In this document: piece after piece, positions 26,251-32,738 of the stretch
Layout of the letters: each line of letters begins with the position of its first letter
Numbering within the stretch: position 1 is the stretch's first letter
Virus genome (UHGV): UHGV-0263785
Origin: a virus
Reading direction: 5' to 3' (one strand)
Length of the DNA stretch: 42,602 nucleotides
Position numbers and translations under genes: made by a program
The notes under the pieces: generated by a model
The model's database searches: none
What the model saw: the letters and a program-made list of their open reading frames with translations, nothing else
Told to the model about the DNA's origin: nothing

Positions 26251-26494
26251 TAATTACCTCGAATAATAAAAACTGCACTATTTGCACAATTTATTATTCG
26301 TTTTCACGCCGCTGAGTTCTATAAAAAAGAAAAAACCTCCGAGGCAGGGTTTTGTTATGGCTCGTTAAATCATCATCCAACTTTTTAGACTGAACGGTGA
26401 TACTTGCAAATATTTGAAAATATGGGCTGGAACCCTATCTTATGATGTGCCTGGTAATTTATATTGTTGGGTCTTTATATCATGAGGAATCACT

Positions 26495-26728
26495 ATGGGT
26501 ACGTTAGGCAACCAGCCGTGCAGAAGTCGTTATGAGTTCGATGATTTTAATTTAGCCAATCGAGCTGCGGCTCTTACTAAGTTAGCAAAAGAAACTGGTG
26601 TATCGGTGGATACCTTAATCAAACTTGAAATTGCTATGCAACTGAATCGGCTCAACTCCATCCTTATCGAAAACGGTGACAAGATGGACGAGAATCTGGC
26701 AGGTATTGGCGAGATACTGCAGAAGTGA
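26495..26728 (+). CDS. Hypothetical small protein, possible HTH (..LAKETGVSVDTLIKLE..)
   Basis: 77-aa ORF at the edge of the AT-rich island, about 400 bp upstream of the ImmA-like gene. Confidence 0.3.
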   Translation: MGTLGNQPCRSRYEFDDFNLANRAAALTKLAKETGVSVDTLIKLEIAMQLNRLNSILIENGDKMDENLAGIGEILQK

Positions 26729-27126
26729 GAGTAGCCCCTCTTCTGAGGGGTTGCACATTTAAAATATTAAGGGCGGTCTTCTTCACGTACACAGTCACCT
26801 GGTCGAATCGTTCACGCATACTGAGTACAAAAAATCTCAACGATAAGATCAGGTTAGACCTGTATTTTCCAGAAACATATAGACGCCTAAAAAAACACTA
26901 AACTCATGATTATCATGTATGTTTTTACTGGAAACATTGAACCATCCACAATACAGCGTAAAAAGCAAGCAATTCACAAGATTTTAAAGTGATTTATCTG
27001 GAAGACTTTACTACTAACAGTTAATATCGTACCAGAAGTGCAGAATTTGCACTTTTACAGGAATGTGGTACGGAACATGCTGTCTATATTTCAACCAATA
27101 ATCGTAATGCAGTAACTGGAGGAGCT

Positions 27127-27615
27127 ATGGCTACCAACCCAAGAGAGCACGCCCGGCGAGTGCTGGACACGTTCTGGTGCGGGCGTGGTTTCCCTGTTGA
27201 TCCAGCGAAAATTGCTCACGACATGGGATTAGATGTTTTTATTACCGATCTTCCTGGGAAAGTTTCTGGCGCACTGATTAAACAAAAAGATCAAGATCCA
27301 GCGATCTTTCTAAACAGTGATGACAACAAAGTTCGTCAACGTTTTTCATGTGGGCATGAGTTGGGGCATTACATCGCCCGGCAAGCATCGCATAGCGATG
27401 AATATGAGTACGTTGATTTACGTGGCGAAACCGCAAGCGCCGGAACGCATCCTGATGAAATTTTTGCAAACAAGTTCGCAGCAGAACTTCTGATGCCGGT
27501 AGATGAGGTCAGAAAACTGCACGCTGACGGTCAACCAAGTTATATAATGGCGCATTATTTTGGCGTATCTGACGATGCGATGACTTATCGTTTAAAGAAC
27601 TTGAGGTTGGGGTAA
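27127..27615 (+). CDS. ImmA/IrrE-family zinc metallopeptidase (COG2856-like)
   Basis: 162 aa; HEXXH motif (HELGHY) followed by ..DEIFANKFAAELLMP.. characteristic of ImmA/IrrE peptidases; GGAGGAG RBS before the ATG. Confidence 0.7.
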   Translation: MATNPREHARRVLDTFWCGRGFPVDPAKIAHDMGLDVFITDLPGKVSGALIKQKDQDPAIFLNSDDNKVRQRFSCGHELGHYIARQASHSDEYEYVDLRGETASAGTHPDEIFANKFAAELLMPVDEVRKLHADGQPSYIMAHYFGVSDDAMTYRLKNLRLG

Positions 27616-27624
27616 CGCTTTAAA

Positions 27625-28230
27625 ATGCCATCGGATGACGATTTTAACAGCCGTTTCAAACAGGAAGTAGCACGCAGACTGAAGGATTCCCTCAACCTAC
27701 ACCGTCAGTTAGCAGAAGAGGTTGAGCCGGAGGACGATGAAACTCCGGTTCAGTCTCCTGACGAAGCTTCACCTCAGCCAAAGGTTTCGCACGCCCCCAA
27801 AAAAACGGCTGTCCGTATTCGCGGAATAGCCAGAAAAAGAGCTGCCGAAGCTCGCAAAATGGCTGTAGCTGCGTCTAGCAAAAGAATTCCAACTGCTACA
27901 CCCTCTCAACAAGTCACCCGTACTGAGAGTAAAATCTTGACCGAGTTCACATCTGTGAAACAGGTGAATTCACTTGATACCGAGCATGAGCGCAAACAAC
28001 TCAACAACAAAGATTTTGAAGCAGAAATCGCTCTAAAAAAACGATACGGGAAATGGTTCCTGATTATCCTTGCTTTCCAACTTCTGATAATGAATGGTGT
28101 ATTTATTGCCGACGGCGCAGGTAAGCTGGAATTTGAGGATTTAACACTACAGTTGTACATGGGCGGTACTTTGACAGAGGTATTCGGCCTCGTGCTGGTC
28201 GTGACAAAATACCTTTTTAAACGCAAGTAA
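27625..28230 (+). CDS. Membrane protein with charged, low-complexity N-terminal region and two C-terminal TM helices; partner of the ImmA-like peptidase
   Basis: 201 aa; starts 9 bp after the peptidase stop; C-terminus ..WFLIILAFQLLIMNGVFIADGAG..LTEVFGLVLVVTKYLFKRK. Confidence 0.55.
   Translation: MPSDDDFNSRFKQEVARRLKDSLNLHRQLAEEVEPEDDETPVQSPDEASPQPKVSHAPKKTAVRIRGIARKRAAEARKMAVAASSKRIPTATPSQQVTRTESKILTEFTSVKQVNSLDTEHERKQLNNKDFEAEIALKKRYGKWFLIILAFQLLIMNGVFIADGAGKLEFEDLTLQLYMGGTLTEVFGLVLVVTKYLFKRK
28152..28230 (+). repeat. Direct repeat copy 1 (the last ~26 codons of the membrane-protein gene)
   Basis: About 79 bp, roughly 90% identical to 31575-31653; homology ends exactly at the stop codon. 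Confidence 0.8.
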
Positions 28231-28244
28231 CTCTCTCGGTCCAA

Positions 28245-28266
28245 CAGTCTTTCGAAGGCCCTGATC
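28245..28266 (+). terminator. Hairpin (aaggccc-tgatca-aagggcctt) 3' of the membrane-protein gene
   Basis: Inverted repeat 15 bp after the stop. Confidence 0.35.
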
Positions 28267-28692
28267 AAAGGGCCTTGATAAATTAGCAGTGCGTTGAAAA
28301 CAGATAGTTATTCCCATCAGTTCCAACGTAATACACATCAAAAAAATCACCATTCTTTTGCTCTAACGTCAACACCTACCCTTAAAAAAATAATTCTCCA
28401 AGAATGAGAAAGTTATTGTGTGTATTAGATAAGATATGAGCTGACACATCTATGGCGTGGAGCCAAATTTAATATGACAGTCCGCTCTGTGCCATAAGCG
28501 GACTGTCAATAAACAGATTCACTTGTAAATCTTGAAGCTATACATATTTACTTTCAATGATAAATAAAAGAACTATCCAAAAATCACTGAGAGCATATTT
28601 TAACTAACCCTCCGCTACTATTAACATAAATTTCACCCAACCATAATTAAATTGATACATATAGCAACTTACCTTGATACGAATCATCTGGG

Positions 28693-29391
28693 TTATATTT
28701 TTCCATATTTTTTTCCGTCAAATCGAATCATGCCAGGATCAAGAAAATTAATTAAATCGATTAACGCGTGCTGTATTCTGATTAGCCTTTCTTTATAAAT
28801 TCCGATATCTCTTGTCATATTTATCACTTCATTGTTTAAATCTAAAAAAAATGGCTCATTGATAAAGCAATTTTCCTTTGTGAAACTGCCGTAACCTATG
28901 CAATCAAATCCAGTATCTGTTGATATCAGCATCTTTTCTGCAATAGCTCTCTGCTCTCCTATGAAAAACATAAAATACTGACCAAAGACGTCTGTTTGGA
29001 TTAATGAGTTAATATTGTTCTGTAATCTAATAAACTCCCTCATTTTTTTATTTTTTTCTAGGCTAAGGTATTGAATGTCTATGCGGGCAGCTTCTGTCCA
29101 TGCAAAAAACTGGGAAAAAAGAAAAACAGTATTGTTGATAACATAATCTTGTTGGCGCTTATTCCCATTATGATAAAACTCTTCAATGAACCCCAATTCT
29201 AATATATTATAAATACGGCTTTGTAAGTCTGAAGCTGAGCGAATTAACGGTTCAATATAGTACTGATGTTTTCTCCTTACATCCAGTGATTCATTGAGCT
29301 TGTTTATTCTATTCTGATTATAAGTAGATATAGCAATAGAGATTATAGCTATTGCACCACTAATAAAGCTTGAAATTAATGCCGTACCCAT
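28693..29391 (-). CDS. Membrane-anchored hypothetical protein (N-terminal TM helix), strongly AT-rich gene
   Basis: 232 aa, ATG start; N-terminus MGTALISSFISGAIAIISIAISTY; base composition clearly lower in GC than the phage backbone. Confidence 0.5.
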   Translation of the reverse strand: MGTALISSFISGAIAIISIAISTYNQNRINKLNESLDVRRKHQYYIEPLIRSASDLQSRIYNILELGFIEEFYHNGNKRQQDYVINNTVFLFSQFFAWTEAARIDIQYLSLEKNKKMREFIRLQNNINSLIQTDVFGQYFMFFIGEQRAIAEKMLISTDTGFDCIGYGSFTKENCFINEPFFLDLNNEVINMTRDIGIYKERLIRIQHALIDLINFLDPGMIRFDGKKYGKI

Positions 29392-29954
29392 CTAAAAGTC
29401 CTTTGATTCTTGCTTGGTTAACAAAATGACATAATTTTATTTAATGCCATAACAACTTAACAATATATCATAATATGATTATTATGGTGTAGCTTGTCGC
29501 ATCTACGCTCCATTACAAACAGATGTAAGATATAACCTATATGTTTTAGCCAGCAAATTCGAAAGCATTCAAAGTAGTCTCATCGAACTCTCGAAACCCT
29601 ATGTCTTCGGGTATAAAATATTTAAATCCATTTGCATAATATCGACTCATGTTTATTATATTCTCCCCATTCACCATTAAGATTTGACATTATTTTCAAC
29701 AATCGGTTATTGCAAGATTGAAATATATTTTTACTTGACACAATATTCCATGTAGCCCAGCGATTCGACTTACCCCCAACTATACGGACAATCTAAATTA
29801 AATCGATGATTTTTTGATACATTCTCCTCTCTCCATTACTTTATGTTTTTGTTCCCCAAAAATACCTTGCTCTCTAAAAAATAATTGTTCTTTAAGTTCA
29901 AAATCGAGATCTACATGAGCGTTAGATACAAAGCTAATATGTTGAAATGTCTTT

Positions 29955-29963
29955 CCCCCCCCC
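29955..29963. repeat. Homopolymeric C9 (G9 on the minus strand) tract
   Basis: Counted directly: ctttccccccccc|ataacgg. Confidence 0.9.
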
Positions 29964-30579
29964 ATAACGGCATTGTTATCTAAACTATGTTACACAAATA
30001 TAATATTACCCTTTCAACGTAATCCAAGAATAAGATTAATGCCATTATATATATCATAAATATGATATTTTGTATATTTTTATCATTTAGCCTTGATTGT
30101 ACTAGGTGTACTCTCAACGAAGTAGGGAAAGTCTGTTCCTCGCTCACAGCTGCCCTTCAGTAAGCGAAAAAATGCCTACTCGGTGCCATATACAGCCATT
30201 GTTATTAACAGCAGGGAATAATTCAAAACTGAAATTAAATATCTACCTTTTACAGTAGAAATAGTTCCTCCAGGACACTATCCATTGCCGGGCACAATCA
30301 CTCGGGGTATAACGATATAAAATATGTTCATGATAGTGCAGGTTCGTATATTAAGTTCAGCAGCGAAAACATGCCTTACAGGTTTCCGGTTTTGGGAGCG
30401 TCGTTACAGGATCCTGCGCATACCGTTCCCATCTGTTGAATTAAAGGTTTCACAGCCTTTGCCGATATCACCTTTTACCTTACCTGTGATGCGTTCAGTG
30501 CTCAGCGTTGTTTACTGTAGCTCTCGGGACTGATTACAGACCGCGTCTTAAAAACCAATCCTTACTCTAAAGGGAATTC

Positions 30580-31503
30580 ATGAGATTAAAATACTCAGTA
30601 CTCTTACTCGCCATTGCCCTTACAGGCTGTGATAACAAAAAAGATGAGATCGGTTGTTCTTCGGAAATAACCCAGTCAGCTCTCATGGATTTATTAAAAA
30701 AATCTGCTTATGAAGGACTCTCTGAACAGGTCGATAAATACCCTGATGTCACTAATCAGACCAAACGAAGCACACTGGACAAGATCAAACTAGCCATCTC
30801 TGAGATCTCCACAACATCAAGTGACACGGGCAGCACAATGAAAACTTGTGAAGGGACCGTGACGATGACTCTATCTGCGAACGAGTACGTCCAGCTTTCA
30901 GATGCTTACAGAAAGAATTTTAATCGTAATCTCGATAAGCAAATGGAAAGCCTGTTTTTGGAGAACAACGCAAACGCCTTTTCAAAACGTATCACCTACA
31001 CCGTGCAGGCGACCGACGATCAGAAAAACGTTTTTGTAAAAACCTCTACTGATAATCCGATATCAGTGGGCGCCGCTTTACTGACATCGCTTTCCATTAT
31101 CACCCCGATCGTTGAGCAGCAGAAAATCCAGCAGGCTAAGGATGCCCAACAGAGTCAAATTGAAGCGGAACAACAGGTGCAACTCAGGGCGCAAGAACAG
31201 GCTAAGTATGAGGCGGAGAAGCAAATAGAGAGACAGGCACAACTTCAGCCGCAAAAAGCTGACAACCTTGATCAGTCCCGAATGGCATTTGCGAATGCCG
31301 ACTCTGATTTGAGTACCGTCTGGAGCAAGTTAACCCCGGCGAAGAAAAAAGATTTGCTGCCTTCTCAGCGTCAGTGGATCAAAACTAAGGATGCTATGTG
31401 CGGTAAAGTTTCAATGCAGGGAACAGATGCTGAAGTCAAGAAAATGGTCGACTGCCAGACGCAAATGACCCTTTCAAGAATCGCTTTCCTCAGAAACCAA
31501 TAA
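30580..31503 (+). CDS. Lipoprotein with central Gln/Glu-rich coiled-coil and C-terminal DUF1311 (LprI-like) domain
   Basis: 307 aa; lipobox (LLAIALTGC|D); C-terminal ..SQRQWIKTKDAMCGKVSMQGTDAEVKKMVDCQTQMTLSRIAFLRNQ fits the DUF1311 pattern (Q..W...RD..C......C....T..R...L). Confidence 0.6.
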   Translation: MRLKYSVLLLAIALTGCDNKKDEIGCSSEITQSALMDLLKKSAYEGLSEQVDKYPDVTNQTKRSTLDKIKLAISEISTTSSDTGSTMKTCEGTVTMTLSANEYVQLSDAYRKNFNRNLDKQMESLFLENNANAFSKRITYTVQATDDQKNVFVKTSTDNPISVGAALLTSLSIITPIVEQQKIQQAKDAQQSQIEAEQQVQLRAQEQAKYEAEKQIERQAQLQPQKADNLDQSRMAFANADSDLSTVWSKLTPAKKKDLLPSQRQWIKTKDAMCGKVSMQGTDAEVKKMVDCQTQMTLSRIAFLRNQ

Positions 31504-31574
31504 CTGAAGTCTCCTTCAAGCTGGCGCCAGGTGTTAACCTGGTGCCAGCTTAGTCATCAAGTGCATATGTAACT

Positions 31575-31653
31575 GTTTTATATGGGCGGTACTTTGACAG
31601 AGGTATTCGGTCTCGTGCTGGTCGTGGTCAAATACCTTTTTAAGCGCAAATAG
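31575..31653 (+). pseudogene. Direct repeat copy 2: orphan 3' remnant of a homologous membrane-protein gene (encodes ..YMGGTLTEVFGLVLVVVKYLFKRK*)
   Basis: In-frame through to a TAG stop, differences mostly synonymous, no upstream coding sequence. Confidence 0.7.
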
Positions 31654-31677
31654 AGTATTTCCGCCCCAAACAACCTG

Positions 31678-32496
31678 TCAAAATGCTGAATTAGCAACGG
31701 ATATAGCCGACTTTTTCCCCATTACCATCAATTTATCCAGTGTCATACTTCGCAGATTGTCGCTGTGGATCACCAGATACCCTGCCCGCTCAGCGATCTC
31801 TTTGAAAGCGTCAAAGGTCATCAGATGTTCGCCTTTGGCAACATGGCGCATCCCGGTCACTTTTCCATTTTTGATAGTGGTGATAAAAGAAAAATCTGGA
31901 ATGGTTGGGTGATTTTCATCGAGTAGCAGGCAGTGGATGTATTCAATCGCCTCTAACATTTGCGTCTGTGACAGTTGTTCTATGTGAGAGACGGCGAAGC
32001 GTTGATGAATCATGGTGTAGGCATCGGGATACATCATGCCTTTCTTGCCGACCAGTATATTAACGGCATCACGCAAGGGAGTACGGTCATCGGTAGTTGT
32101 ACTCCGCCTCTCTGGACGCTGGCTAAAATAACAATCTTCCAGCTTTTCGAAAACTTCCCAGGCCTGTTCTGTTTCCAGCATTTTGGCATGGCGAGCTGCG
32201 CCGCGTTCTGTCCAGAGAATGAGGGATCGGGTATGTTTAGCAACTGACTGACTATCTGTCAGTCTGTTTTTGAAGTCGCGTAATTCATTACCTTCCAGCT
32301 TAAAAAAATGCTTTCCTACGACAAATCTGGCGATGTTGCGCTTGAAGTTTTGCTGGATACCATTTACTTCCGTGCCATACAAACTGGCAAGCAATTCAGT
32401 AGTGATGACGGGAAGTTGGTTATGATGTAGCGGAGAAAGGGATTCCGCAGATATTTGGACTGTCATCGCAGTGGCCTCACTTAGTGTTTTTTTCAT
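31678..32496 (-). CDS. Phage antirepressor (Ant-like)
   Basis: N-terminal region resembles antirepressor N-domains and the C-terminal half KilA-C-type domains; the listed ORF starts at TTG (32514), the first ATG is at 32496. Confidence 0.55.
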   Translation of the reverse strand: MKKTLSEATAMTVQISAESLSPLHHNQLPVITTELLASLYGTEVNGIQQNFKRNIARFVVGKHFFKLEGNELRDFKNRLTDSQSVAKHTRSLILWTERGAARHAKMLETEQAWEVFEKLEDCYFSQRPERRSTTTDDRTPLRDAVNILVGKKGMMYPDAYTMIHQRFAVSHIEQLSQTQMLEAIEYIHCLLLDENHPTIPDFSFITTIKNGKVTGMRHVAKGEHLMTFDAFKEIAERAGYLVIHSDNLRSMTLDKLMVMGKKSAISVANSAF

Positions 32497-32528
32497 CACC
32501 ACCAGCGACGCCAATCATCTGGTGGTGA
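32496..32528. promoter_or_regulatory. Perfect 10-bp palindrome (tcaccaccag N13 ctggtggtga) overlapping the antirepressor RBS/start
   Basis: Read directly; the 3' arm contains the GGTGGTG Shine-Dalgarno-like sequence. Confidence 0.35.
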
Positions 32529-32738
32529 GCTGTGCAGGGTTGGCGTAACCGGCTAAGTGAACCCGGCGCTTCCACAGAAGCCCCCACACAGCCCACCATA
32601 ATGCGAATGTGGCCGTGCCTAACACATAAAAAAACCGCTAACGCGGCTATGCGTCACTTAGATATCCGGGACGCCAATCCCGGCAACCGATTTTGCGGCT
32701 GCGCGGAAACTATAGCCCCGGACTTTTTCTAAGTCAAT

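What the first reader, a model, noticed from the sequence alone, without database searches (positions are those of the whole stretch)
28152..31653. ~3.3 kb AT-rich segment bracketed by a ~79-bp direct repeat that is the 3' end of the membrane-protein gene
The last ~26 codons of the membrane-protein gene (28152-28230) recur at 31575-31653 at roughly 90% identity, still in frame and ending at a stop, but with no gene body upstream. Homology stops exactly at the stop codon in both copies. The intervening segment (28231-31574) is much more AT-rich than the phage backbone and carries two orphan genes in opposite orientations. This is the signature of a module gained by recombination between diverged homologues. 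The island also sits head-on in the early operon between the antirepressor and the Q-proximal genes, which may decouple Q expression from the early promoter.
Basis: seen in the sequence. Interest (0 to 1): 0.6.

Follow-up and report, generated by a model that had tools for sequence, protein, structure and literature searches.

The report
Gene-tail scar bracketing swapped prophage cargo
The repeat is real, but it is a decaying leftover of an older copy of a membrane-protein gene, sitting in a cargo-swapping hotspot of an E. coli ST131 prophage; the DNA it brackets is two or more independently exchanged accessory-gene cassettes rather than one island, which is an ordinary (if nicely documented) case of phage mosaicism.

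Summary
Observation confirmed. The last 81 nt of the 201-aa membrane-protein gene (28149-28229) recur at 31572-31652 at 89% identity. The second copy ends in a stop codon and has an in-frame TAA just upstream.

Interpretation partly supported. The 3.4 kb between the copies is not one AT-rich island.
- Only 28253-30178 is AT-rich (32.8% GC). It is 86% identical to a cassette from the Z/fun variable locus of P2-like phages and still carries pieces of that locus's conserved flanks.
- The LprI-like lipoprotein module (30179-31571, 44% GC) plus the gene-tail remnant is a separate, older unit. It occurs in related prophages with entirely different upstream cargo.

Copy B is a pseudogene fragment. 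It changes residues that are invariant in 45 of 46 intact homologues and carries frameshifts or stops in other lineages.

The two tails still recombine. One genome of 452 (GPEC172) has lost exactly this segment and carries an A/B chimeric tail. An E. whittamii remnant and one copy in strain LCP30S3_I5 are also chimeras.

There is no integrase, transposase or att-like core.

The effect on Q expression cannot be tested here. This is a new member of a known kind, an accessory-gene hotspot with recombination scars. Interest is modest.

The parts
27127..27615 (+). ImmA/IrrE-family metallopeptidase gene (162 aa), first gene of the two-gene ImmA-TM module
   Evidence: Pfam Peptidase_M78 7.7e-18. PADLOC CapP 2.4e-25. 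A diverged copy of the same gene pair lies next to the integrase of another prophage (L009).
27625..28230 (+). 201-aa membrane-protein gene; variable N-terminal part and a conserved C-terminal two-helix part
   Evidence: phrog_5346. 48 protein clusters, all named ones from Enterobacterales. The last 26 residues are identical or nearly so across the family.
28149..28229 (+). Repeat copy A: the functional 3' end of the membrane-protein gene
   Evidence: The encoded tail is identical (26/26) in 20 of the 46 intact homologous proteins and near-identical (21-25/26) in the rest.
28231..28418 (+). Native 3' untranslated region of the membrane-protein gene, with an 8-bp hairpin at 28255-28276
   Evidence: It follows remnant copies in LCP30S3_I5 (80-83%) and in E. 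whittamii (96%). The hairpin is read directly from the sequence.
28419..28508 (.). About 85-nt structured element, the left anchor of the P2 Z/fun cargo slot; includes a 12-13-bp hairpin at 28475-28508 that also serves as a terminator-like site for the 232-aa gene
   Evidence: Annotated 'left inverted repeat' in P2-EC58. In the three P2-type left-flank clusters (31 of 43 IMG/VR loci) it directly follows the stop codon of a P2 G-like (tail-fibre assembly) gene. Across those loci there are 6 left contexts but 16 right contexts. Fold z-score -5.2 on the minus strand. Terminator-like hit.
28693..29391 (-). 232-aa single-pass membrane protein ('lysogenic protein'), the cargo of the AT-rich cassette
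   Evidence: 91% amino-acid identity to P2-EC58 Z-region ORF1. 290 homologues. All 45 aligned members hit PADLOC RTasTM. It is a solitary gene in mobile-element and defence-island contexts. AlphaFold2 pLDDT 87, helical.
29392..30126 (-). AT-rich (32% GC) non-coding leader of the 232-aa gene
   Evidence: 86% nucleotide identity to P2-EC58, but its small ORFs are only 55-77% identical as proteins and are frame-broken there. No Rfam match.
30127..30150 (.). Truncated right anchor of the P2 Z/fun slot (first ~12-24 nt of the P2-EC58 'right inverted repeat'); breakpoint cluster 30137-30179
   Evidence: Homology to P2-EC58 ends at 30150. The P2 right anchor starts at L001 1739-1757 in 22 of the 24 P2-context loci where it was detected, whatever the cargo. 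Variant junctions fall at 30137, 30144 and 30179.
30179..31571 (+). LprI-like lipoprotein module: upstream region, 307-aa gene (30580-31503) and a 15-bp hairpin (31518-31551)
   Evidence: Pfam LprI 4.1e-07; phrog_5094. The lipobox LTGC is read from the translation. Present in 441 genomes behind several different upstream cargos.
31572..31652 (+). Repeat copy B: truncated, decaying 3' remnant of an older membrane-protein gene
   Evidence: Its three amino-acid changes fall at positions shared by 45 of 46 intact homologues, and no full-length B-type protein was returned. Frameshifted or stop-containing versions occur in other lineages.
31678..32514 (-). ORF6N antirepressor gene, tail-to-tail with copy B (24-nt spacer)
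   Evidence: Pfam ORF6N 1e-21. phrog_4792 anti-repressor.
32518..32715 (-). C4 antisense RNA, isrK and c4-a1b1 elements upstream of the antirepressor (P1 immI-like control region)
   Evidence: Rfam RF01695 75 bits, RF01394 80 bits, RF03163 53 bits; all exceed their gathering scores.

Best explanation
The interval lies in a cargo-swapping hotspot between the replication genes and the ninB-Q genes of a lambdoid prophage that is widespread in E. coli ST131. It is a stack of independent accessory-gene modules, not one island.

Modules:
1. An AT-rich cassette (about 28419-30150) encoding a solitary single-pass membrane protein. It was captured from the Z/fun slot of a P2-like phage together with about 85 nt of that slot's left flank and about 12-24 nt of its right flank.
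2. An inner-membrane-type lipoprotein gene of the LprI family with its own hairpin.
3. The last 81 nt of an older, diverged copy of the membrane-protein gene, now a pseudogene fragment lying tail-to-tail with the antirepressor gene.

Inferred origin of the repeat: DNA carrying a complete ImmA-membrane-protein module and downstream cargo was joined to a resident genome that already had such a gene next to the antirepressor. The left join was homologous and the right join illegitimate, inside the resident gene about 81-90 nt before its stop. This stranded the resident tail.

Shown here: the two tails are substrates for ordinary homologous recombination. Crossovers within them delete the whole segment, regenerating an intact-length chimeric gene, or re-associate what lies downstream. 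The tail therefore acts as a hinge for module shuffling.

Inferred function: the cargo genes probably act in the lysogen as envelope-located conversion or anti-phage functions.
For: Composite nature:
- GC is 32.8% for 28253-30178 and 44.4% for 30179-31571.
- 28421-30150 is 86% identical to the P2-EC58 Z-region. The same cassette lies between the tail-fibre assembly and sheath genes in strain EC-107.
- 22KM0354, S42 and E. whittamii replace 28253-30178 with a GIY-YIG cargo. Ecol_AZ159 replaces 28508-30136 with 4.2 kb of other genes. LD91-1 and LCP30S3_I5 have LprI plus remnant with other cargo and no full-length membrane-protein gene.

Remnant status:
- 7 of 10 differences are at third codon positions and the stop is kept.
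- The Q->L, L->F and T->V changes fall at positions shared by 45 of 46 intact homologues.
- LD91-1, S42 and E. whittamii share a 1-nt deletion, and LCP30 copy 1 has an in-frame TAA.
- The window-type and LD91-type remnants share TTT...AAG CGC AAA TAG, which indicates one old truncation followed by independent decay.

Recombination in the tail:
- A synthetic deletion junction finds exactly 1 of 452 genomes (GPEC172). All eleven neighbouring genes I compared encode proteins with the same accessions as in ST131 strain SA186; the one exception is the 225-aa gene left of the hotspot, which has a different accession and annotated start.
- Its single tail is A-type on the 5' side and B-type on the 3' side, so the crossover lies in the 29-nt identical core.
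- The E. whittamii remnant is LD91-type at its 5' end and A-type at its 3' end, and continues into a 96% copy of 28231-28502.
- LCP30 copy 2 is likewise mixed.

Hotspot anchors:
- The 85-nt element has 6 left but 16 right contexts in IMG/VR.
- In P2-context loci the right anchor starts at a fixed point whatever the cargo (22 of the 24 where it was detected).

General phenomenon: rapid swapping of P2 hotspot cargo, sharing with non-P2 prophages, and small intergenic pseudogene remnants attributed to recombination are described in bioRxiv 10.64898/2026.02.27.708500 and PMC9122126.
Against: - The founding event is inferred. No genome with a full-length B-type gene next to the antirepressor was found, so the order of events (one homology-plus-illegitimate join versus successive independent acquisitions) is unresolved.
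- The ACA->GTC change (three adjacent substitutions) is unusual for simple decay.
- The direction of transfer between the P2-like and lambdoid phages rests only on the carried-over flank fragments.
- Functions of the cargo genes are untested. The PADLOC match of the window's own 232-aa protein is weak (1.8e-05), and no solved structure resembles the model beyond generic helical bundles.
- Promoter-like hits in the region do not exceed chance.
Confidence: 0.75

Rival explanations
1. The 81-nt repeats are the ends (att-like or target-duplication sites) of one discrete mobile island that inserted as a unit by site-specific recombination or transposition.
For: The repeats are direct and bracket DNA of lower GC. 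One genome lacks exactly the bracketed segment.
Against: - The copies are only 89% identical and are coding sequence of a gene family.
- The two large ORFs in 28231-31574 are neither an integrase nor a transposase, and no other long ORF lies there.
- Sub-segments have independent distributions, and their breakpoints are not at the repeats.
- The remnant exists without copy A.
- The one deletion is a chimera with its crossover inside the repeat, as expected for homologous rather than site-specific exchange.
Confidence: 0.04
2. Copy B is kept because it is functional: a 23-aa hydrophobic peptide (MGGTLTEVFGLVLVVVKYLFKRK, toxin-like) or a cis-acting element for the neighbouring antirepressor or LprI genes.
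For: An ATG at 31582 opens a 23-codon frame that ends at the retained stop. The fragment persists in about 440 genomes.
Against: - No Shine-Dalgarno-like sequence lies upstream (read).
- There is a 1-nt deletion in LD91-1, S42 and E. whittamii, and an in-frame stop in LCP30 copy 1.
- Its substitutions fall at residues shared by 45 of 46 intact family members.
- No Rfam match.
- Its persistence is explained by the near-clonal spread of ST131.
Confidence: 0.05
3. The segment was not built by a single joining event. Two ImmA-membrane-protein modules were acquired independently at the same hotspot, and the older one was then eroded by successive cassette replacements. The repeat is an incidental leftover with no historical link to the DNA between the copies.
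For: - The hotspot holds many unrelated cargos.
- The ImmA-membrane-protein module is itself mobile.
- The remnant predates the split between the window-type and LD91-type lineages.
Against: It requires two acquisitions of the same rare module (48 protein clusters in 5.8 billion sequences) at one locus. It differs from the best explanation only in the order of events, and the present data cannot separate the two.
Confidence: 0.15

Closest known systems
Accessory-gene ('moron') and anti-phage hotspots of temperate phages, especially the P2 Z/fun and tin-old variable loci (Nilsson et al. 2004 and Odegrip et al. 2006, from reference lists and my own knowledge; Rousset et al. 2022, PMC9122126; Moura de Sousa et al. 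2026, bioRxiv 10.64898/2026.02.27.708500)
   Same: - A fixed slot in a conserved backbone.
- Unrelated, often AT-rich cargo swapped between near-identical phages.
- Conserved flanks.
- Cargo shared with non-P2 prophages.
- Small intergenic pseudogene remnants left by recombination.
- The cassette here is 86% identical to a deposited P2-EC58 Z-region sequence.
   Different: - The slot here is in the nin region of a lambdoid prophage.
- The P2 flank fragments have travelled with the cargo.
- The remnant is long enough, and paired with an intact homologue, to still drive deletion and reassortment.
Mosaic module boundaries and gene remnants in lambdoid phages (Juhala et al. 2000 and the Hendrix model; own knowledge)
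   Same: Sharp homology transitions at gene ends, and illegitimate joins later spread by homologous recombination in shared flanks.
   Different: Here both parental versions of one gene end survive side by side in the same genome. This gives a direct repeat, and recombinant derivatives were observed.
Homology-facilitated illegitimate recombination (de Vries and Wackernagel 2002; own knowledge)
   Same: One homologous anchor plus one illegitimate join would produce exactly a full incoming gene, foreign DNA, and a stranded tail of the resident gene.
   Different: It is proposed here only by inference from the structure. It was not demonstrated, and the original work concerns natural transformation rather than phage-phage exchange.
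Transmembrane partners of defence-associated reverse transcriptases (PADLOC models RTasTM and Drt1b; RT-nitrilase + 1TM system in PMC9122126)
   Same: All 45 aligned members of the 232-aa family match the RTasTM models (best 9.8e-11). They share the single N-terminal membrane helix architecture.
   Different: No reverse transcriptase gene lies next to it in the window or in any of the nine homologous places examined (three distinct contexts), so it is a stand-alone gene.

Membership tests
Phage accessory-gene (moron / defence) hotspot cargo | Replaced by unrelated DNA at the same backbone position in otherwise closely related phages | tested here: met
   At least five different cargos lie between the same flanking genes.
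Phage accessory-gene (moron / defence) hotspot cargo | Base composition unlike the backbone | tested here: met
   Met for 28253-30178 (32.8% against 48-49%). Not met for the LprI module (44.4%).
Phage accessory-gene (moron / defence) hotspot cargo | Own promoter and terminator; expressed in the lysogen | tested here: inconclusive
   Hairpins follow each gene. Promoter-like hits do not exceed chance. The P2-EC58 record annotates -35/-10 signals for its ORF1. Expression is not testable here.
P2 Z/fun-locus cassette | Sequence homology to a Z/fun cargo, including the slot's conserved flanks | tested here: met
   86% identity over 1.73 kb, including 85 nt of the left anchor and about 12-24 nt of the right anchor.
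P2 Z/fun-locus cassette | Located between tail-fibre assembly gene G and sheath gene FI of a P2-like phage | tested here: not met
   In the window it lies between the replication genes and the ninB-Q genes of a lambdoid prophage. The P2 location is seen in EC-107.
Integrated island bounded by att repeats | Integrase or recombinase in or next to the island, and an identical core in both repeats | tested here: not met
   The two large ORFs in 28231-31574 show no recombinase domain and no other long ORF lies there. The repeats are 89% identical coding sequence.
Transposon or insertion sequence with target-site duplication | Transposase, terminal inverted repeats, and short identical direct repeats | tested here: not met
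   No transposase. The repeat is 81 nt and diverged. The P2 'inverted repeats' pair over only 37 nt at 76%, and the right one is truncated here.
Integron gene cassette | IntI integrase with attI, and attC at the 3' end of each cassette | tested here: not met
   No integron integrase was seen in the window or in the related loci examined. The 85-nt hairpin element lies at the 3' end of the cargo, but it was not tested against attC models.
Reverse-transcriptase-associated defence system (DRT type 1-like) | Membrane protein matching the RTasTM/Drt1b profiles | tested here: met
   45 of 45 family members match, best E 9.8e-11. The window's own protein scores 1.8e-05.
Reverse-transcriptase-associated defence system (DRT type 1-like) | Adjacent reverse transcriptase gene | tested here: not met
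   None in the window, and none in the nine places (three distinct contexts) that hold homologues.
Small hydrophobic toxin-type mini-ORF (for copy B) | Open frame conserved across lineages, with translation signals | tested here: not met
   Frameshift or stop in four other copies. No ribosome-binding site visible.

The most novel reading that the evidence does not exclude
The ~85-nt hairpin-bearing element (28419-28508) and the conserved gene tail may be more than passive scars. They could be portable docking sequences that travel with cargo and allow cassettes to shuttle, by short-homology recombination or by an unidentified single-strand or hairpin-directed enzyme, between unrelated hotspots. 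The hotspots concerned are P2 Z/fun, the lambdoid nin region, lambdoid integrase-proximal and tail-fibre loci, and chromosomal sites such as nanQ-gltD. In addition, the solitary 232-aa protein could be a free-standing membrane anti-phage effector derived from reverse-transcriptase-associated systems.
Probability: 0.2. Interest if true: 0.6.

Novelty: new member of a known kind. Interest (0 to 1): 0.33.

Why it matters
This is a clear, datable example of how prophage accessory regions are assembled and taken apart:
- a stranded gene tail that still mediates precise loss of 3.4 kb;
- chimeric tails that record crossovers;
- a cassette that moved between a P2-like and a lambdoid phage carrying fragments of its old slot.

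The prophage is present in about 400 complete genomes, many labelled ST131. Its cargo therefore belongs to the accessory make-up of a pandemic clone: a membrane protein related to defence-system partners, and an LprI-like lipoprotein. E. coli CRISPR arrays hold perfect spacers against it.

None of this changes current views of phage mosaicism. The cargo genes are reasonable candidates for anti-phage or envelope-protection tests.

Tried and rejected
- tblastn of the 201-aa protein against 50,697 phage records gave no match.
- Rfam at E<=1 found nothing inside 28231-31653, only the C4/isrK elements further right and a chance miRNA hit.
- A literature search for 'RTasTM' returned only unrelated papers.
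- Nilsson et al. 2004 and Odegrip et al. 2006 are not held, so the original description of the P2-EC58 inverted repeats could not be read.
- The genome-contig scan with the membrane-protein profile returned only 3 loci.
- Small ORFs upstream of the 232-aa gene were considered as genes and rejected. Their protein identity is lower than their DNA identity, and the frame is broken in P2-EC58.
- A remnant of the membrane-protein gene body or of ImmA upstream of LprI was sought by blastn and tblastx and not found.
- An 'inverted-repeat-flanked mobile cassette' was considered. The right repeat is absent near the 85-nt element in BL21, UTI89 and GDSC2239, so it is kept only as a low-probability reading.
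- Phage record ON470624 gave no information on inducibility.

Full report
**Setting**

The window is a lambdoid-type prophage with lambda-like head genes and a contractile tail. It is integrated next to tRNA-Leu/Cys/Gly and pgsA-uvrC. About 400 complete E. coli genomes, many labelled O25b:H4-ST131 (EC958, JJ1886 and others), carry the 26300-32600 stretch at essentially 100% identity.

The early rightward operon runs on the minus strand:
- replication genes and helicase (36524-34364);
- several small genes;
- an ORF6N antirepressor (32514-31678), preceded by C4/isrK-type RNAs;
- further on, DUF1367/NinB, DUF1364 and Q (25201-23644).

Between the antirepressor and NinB lie about 6 kb of accessory genes in both orientations. 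The finding sits inside this stretch.

**The observation**

The repeat is real. It spans 28149-28229 and 31572-31652, 81 nt at 89% identity, and is by far the longest repeat in the region.
- In the frame of the 201-aa membrane-protein gene the copies differ at 10 positions. Seven are third-codon positions, and TAA becomes TAG, so the stop is kept.
- Copy B is preceded by an in-frame TAA and has no gene body.
- Within the window, similarity ends at the stop codon.

The composition claim needs correction. The interval is bipartite, with 32.8% GC for 28253-30178 and 44.4% for 30179-31571. The latter is like the neighbouring genes; the backbone is 48-49%.

**The interval is composite**

The AT-rich part (28421-30150) is 86% identical to GenBank AJ512683, 'bacteriophage P2-EC58 proviral Z-region, ORF1'. 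The same cassette lies between the tail-fibre assembly and tail-sheath genes of a P2-like prophage in strain EC-107.

Relatives of the window's prophage show independent exchange of sub-segments.
- 22KM0354, S42 and E. whittamii Sa2BVA5 keep ImmA, the membrane-protein gene, LprI and the remnant (22KM0354 and S42 also the antirepressor; the E. whittamii remnant runs into native UTR instead). They replace 28253-30178 with a GIY-YIG nuclease cargo.
- Ecol_AZ159 replaces exactly 28508-30136 with 4.2 kb of other genes.
- LD91-1 has LprI, the remnant and the antirepressor behind GIY-YIG and HNH genes, with no ImmA-membrane-protein module in the 5 kb examined upstream.
- LCP30S3_I5 has two remnants flanking IS3, a DUF262 gene and LprI.

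Census among 5,426 genomes:

| Feature | Genomes |
|---|---|
| Membrane-protein gene | 431 |
| AT-rich cassette | 413 |
| LprI plus remnant | 441 |

The unit bounded by the repeats is therefore not a unit of inheritance.

**What copy B is**

The membrane-protein family has 48 clusters, and all the named ones come from Enterobacterales. Its N-terminal part is variable and its C-terminal two-helix part is conserved.
- The 26-residue tail of copy A is identical in 20 of 46 intact homologues and near-identical in the rest.
- Copy B's three amino-acid changes (Q->L, L->F, T->V) fall at positions shared by 45 of those 46, and no full-length B-type protein was returned.
- Other lineages carry decayed versions. 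LD91-1, S42 and E. whittamii share a 1-nt deletion, and LCP30 copy 1 has an in-frame TAA.
- The window-type and LD91-type remnants share TTT...AAG CGC AAA TAG. This indicates one old truncation beside the antirepressor followed by independent decay (my inference).

Copy B is thus a pseudogene fragment. Its synonymous-biased divergence dates from when it was still part of a working, diverged homologue.

**The tails still recombine**

I searched with a synthetic junction made of the gene with its A-tail followed directly by the DNA right of copy B. It found 1 genome of 452 with the contiguous arrangement: GPEC172.
- All eleven neighbouring genes I compared encode proteins with the same accessions as in ST131 strain SA186. 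The exception is the 225-aa gene left of the hotspot, which has a different accession and annotated start.
- Its single tail is A-type at the 5' polymorphisms and B-type at the 3' ones. The crossover therefore lies in the 29-nt identical core.

This is a recent homologous deletion of the 3,423-bp segment. It regenerates a 201-codon chimeric gene and is not an ancestral empty site.

Two further chimeras exist.
- The E. whittamii remnant is LD91-type at its 5' end and A-type at its 3' end. It continues into a 96% copy of 28231-28502, the native untranslated region plus the 85-nt element.
- LCP30 copy 2 is window-B-type at the 5' end and LCP30-type at the 3' end, with about 200 nt of native downstream sequence.

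The tail therefore behaves as a homology hinge that deletes or re-associates modules.

**The cargo slot and its anchors**

Window 28419-28508 corresponds to the 'left inverted repeat' annotated in P2-EC58. A pattern scan of IMG/VR found 43 loci.
- In the 31 loci of the three P2-type left-flank clusters, the element directly follows the stop codon of a P2 G-like (tail-fibre assembly) gene.
- Left flanks fall into 6 clusters and right flanks into 16. Divergence begins in or just after the hairpin GTCCGCTCTGTGCC.
- The P2 right anchor begins at the same point (L001 1739-1757) in 22 of the 24 P2-context loci where it was detected, whatever the cargo.
- The window's homology runs 12-24 nt into it and then stops at 30150.
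- The variant junctions at 30137, 30144 and 30179 cluster there.

The lambdoid slot therefore contains a P2 Z/fun cassette together with fragments of both P2 anchors. I read this as capture from a P2-like phage. In Ecol_AZ159 the cargo has since been swapped precisely between these anchors.

The 85-nt element also occurs beside other variable DNA:
- integrase-proximal cargo in UTI89 and GDSC2239;
- the nanQ-gltD interval of E. coli B;
- a lambdoid integrase/tail-fibre locus whose SMEK-methyltransferase cargo is 89% identical to the cargo of the ECO21 nin slot.

The right anchor does not accompany it in several of these. A dedicated mobile element is therefore not supported. The element folds well, with z-scores of -3 to -5, and its hairpin is terminator-like for the 232-aa gene.

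**The cargo genes**

The 232-aa protein is named 'lysogenic protein' by NCBI, following the P2-EC58 record.
- It has 290 homologues.
- All 45 aligned members match the PADLOC model for the membrane partner of defence-associated reverse transcriptases, best E 9.8e-11. The window's own protein scores 1.8e-05.
- No reverse transcriptase is adjacent in the window or in the nine homologous places examined (three distinct contexts). These are an AlpA/DUF4238 island, a conjugative element, and a site next to SIR2-HerA.
- The AlphaFold2 model (pLDDT 87) is an N-terminal membrane helix running into a helical bundle, without a specific structural relative.
- The 735-nt AT-rich stretch upstream is non-coding.

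The 307-aa protein has a lipobox (LTGC) followed by Asp. By the E. coli +2 rule (own knowledge) this predicts inner-membrane retention. It also has a C-terminal LprI/DUF1311 domain.

My inference, at low confidence, is that both act at the envelope of the lysogen. The first would be an exclusion or abortive-infection-type effector. The second would be a periplasmic inhibitor, for example of incoming muralytic enzymes.

**How the repeat most likely arose (inferred)**

A genome that carried ImmA and a B-type membrane-protein gene tail-to-tail with the antirepressor recombined with DNA carrying ImmA, an A-type gene, its untranslated region, cargo and LprI. The left join was homologous. The right join was illegitimate, between the LprI hairpin and a point about 81-90 nt before the resident stop.

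This is the geometry of homology-facilitated illegitimate recombination (own knowledge). It yields exactly a complete incoming gene, foreign DNA and a stranded resident tail.

Successive independent acquisitions with erosion cannot be excluded.

**The transcription idea**

Inside the interval only LprI opposes the early operon. ImmA and the membrane-protein gene also oppose it but lie outside the interval. The 232-aa gene is co-directional.

All relatives carry 3-9 kb of bidirectional cargo at this position, so the architecture is tolerated. Whether early transcripts reach Q cannot be decided without RNA data.

**Comparison with what is known**

Hotspots of rapidly swapped accessory and defence genes in P2-like phages, sharing of their cargo with non-P2 prophages, and small intergenic pseudogene remnants attributed to intense local recombination are already described. 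The sources are PMC9122126 and bioRxiv 10.64898/2026.02.27.708500.

The present case is a new, well-resolved instance in a lambdoid nin region. It is not a new kind of element.

**Verdict**

| Item | Assessment |
|---|---|
| Observation | Confirmed |
| Novelty | New member of a known kind |
| Interest | About 0.33 |

Noticed in passing
window 30580-30611, 28181-28212, 27333-27367, 31053-31085: E. coli type I-E CRISPR arrays carry spacers that match this accessory region.
- A 32/32 match to the first 32 nt of the LprI gene with an ATG PAM; about 121 genomes hold matches of this class.
- A 32/32 match to repeat copy A with an AAG PAM, in strain 23CRST031. It has 4 mismatches to copy B.
- 35-nt and 33-nt perfect matches in ImmA and LprI, in single strains.
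   Followed up: partly
window 32518-32715 (minus strand): C4 antisense RNA, isrK and c4-a1b1 target elements sit upstream of the ORF6N antirepressor, behind a promoter-like site at 32737-32709. This resembles the P1 immI region and the Gifsy-1 IsrK-AnrP arrangement.
   Followed up: partly
window 28419-28508; L006 3001-3081; L007 3001-3084; L008 3001-3104: The ~85-nt hairpin-bearing element occurs at 76-80% identity in about 880 E. coli genomes. Sites include the gap between nanQ and a 101-aa 'transposase' in E. coli B, and integrase-proximal cargo in other prophages. It has no Rfam family. Beyond acting as a terminator and a homology anchor, its role is unexplained.
   Followed up: partly
L005 7831-12830; L064 4186-7408 (also L033, L038): The SMEK-domain gene plus methyltransferase cargo in the ECO21 nin slot is 89% identical to cargo lying between the integrase and the tail-fibre genes of another lambdoid prophage. 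There it is flanked by the 85-nt element and an 84-nt homologue of the P2 right inverted repeat.
   Followed up: partly
window 27625-28230, 28510-30130, 30180-31700 (in strains AR_451, MSB1_4E, 20AR0479, R10): In individual genomes that carry the window-identical prophage, IS1 insertions interrupt the membrane-protein gene, the 232-aa cassette or the LprI region.
   Followed up: no
window 30580-30660: The LprI-like lipoprotein has the lipobox LTGC followed by Asp at +2. By the E. coli sorting rule (own knowledge) this predicts inner-membrane retention.
   Followed up: no
L009 5310-6277: A diverged ImmA plus 155-aa membrane-protein pair lies between tRNA-Ser and the integrase of a different prophage in strain ECL27829. 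The two-gene module is therefore itself mobile. No helix-turn-helix partner for ImmA was seen.
   Followed up: partly
L069 (ON470624.1 25797-27112): The phage record vB_EcoM-705R4 is labelled a complete genome (27 kb), yet it ends inside this ImmA gene. It is probably a truncated prophage-derived sequence.
   Followed up: no
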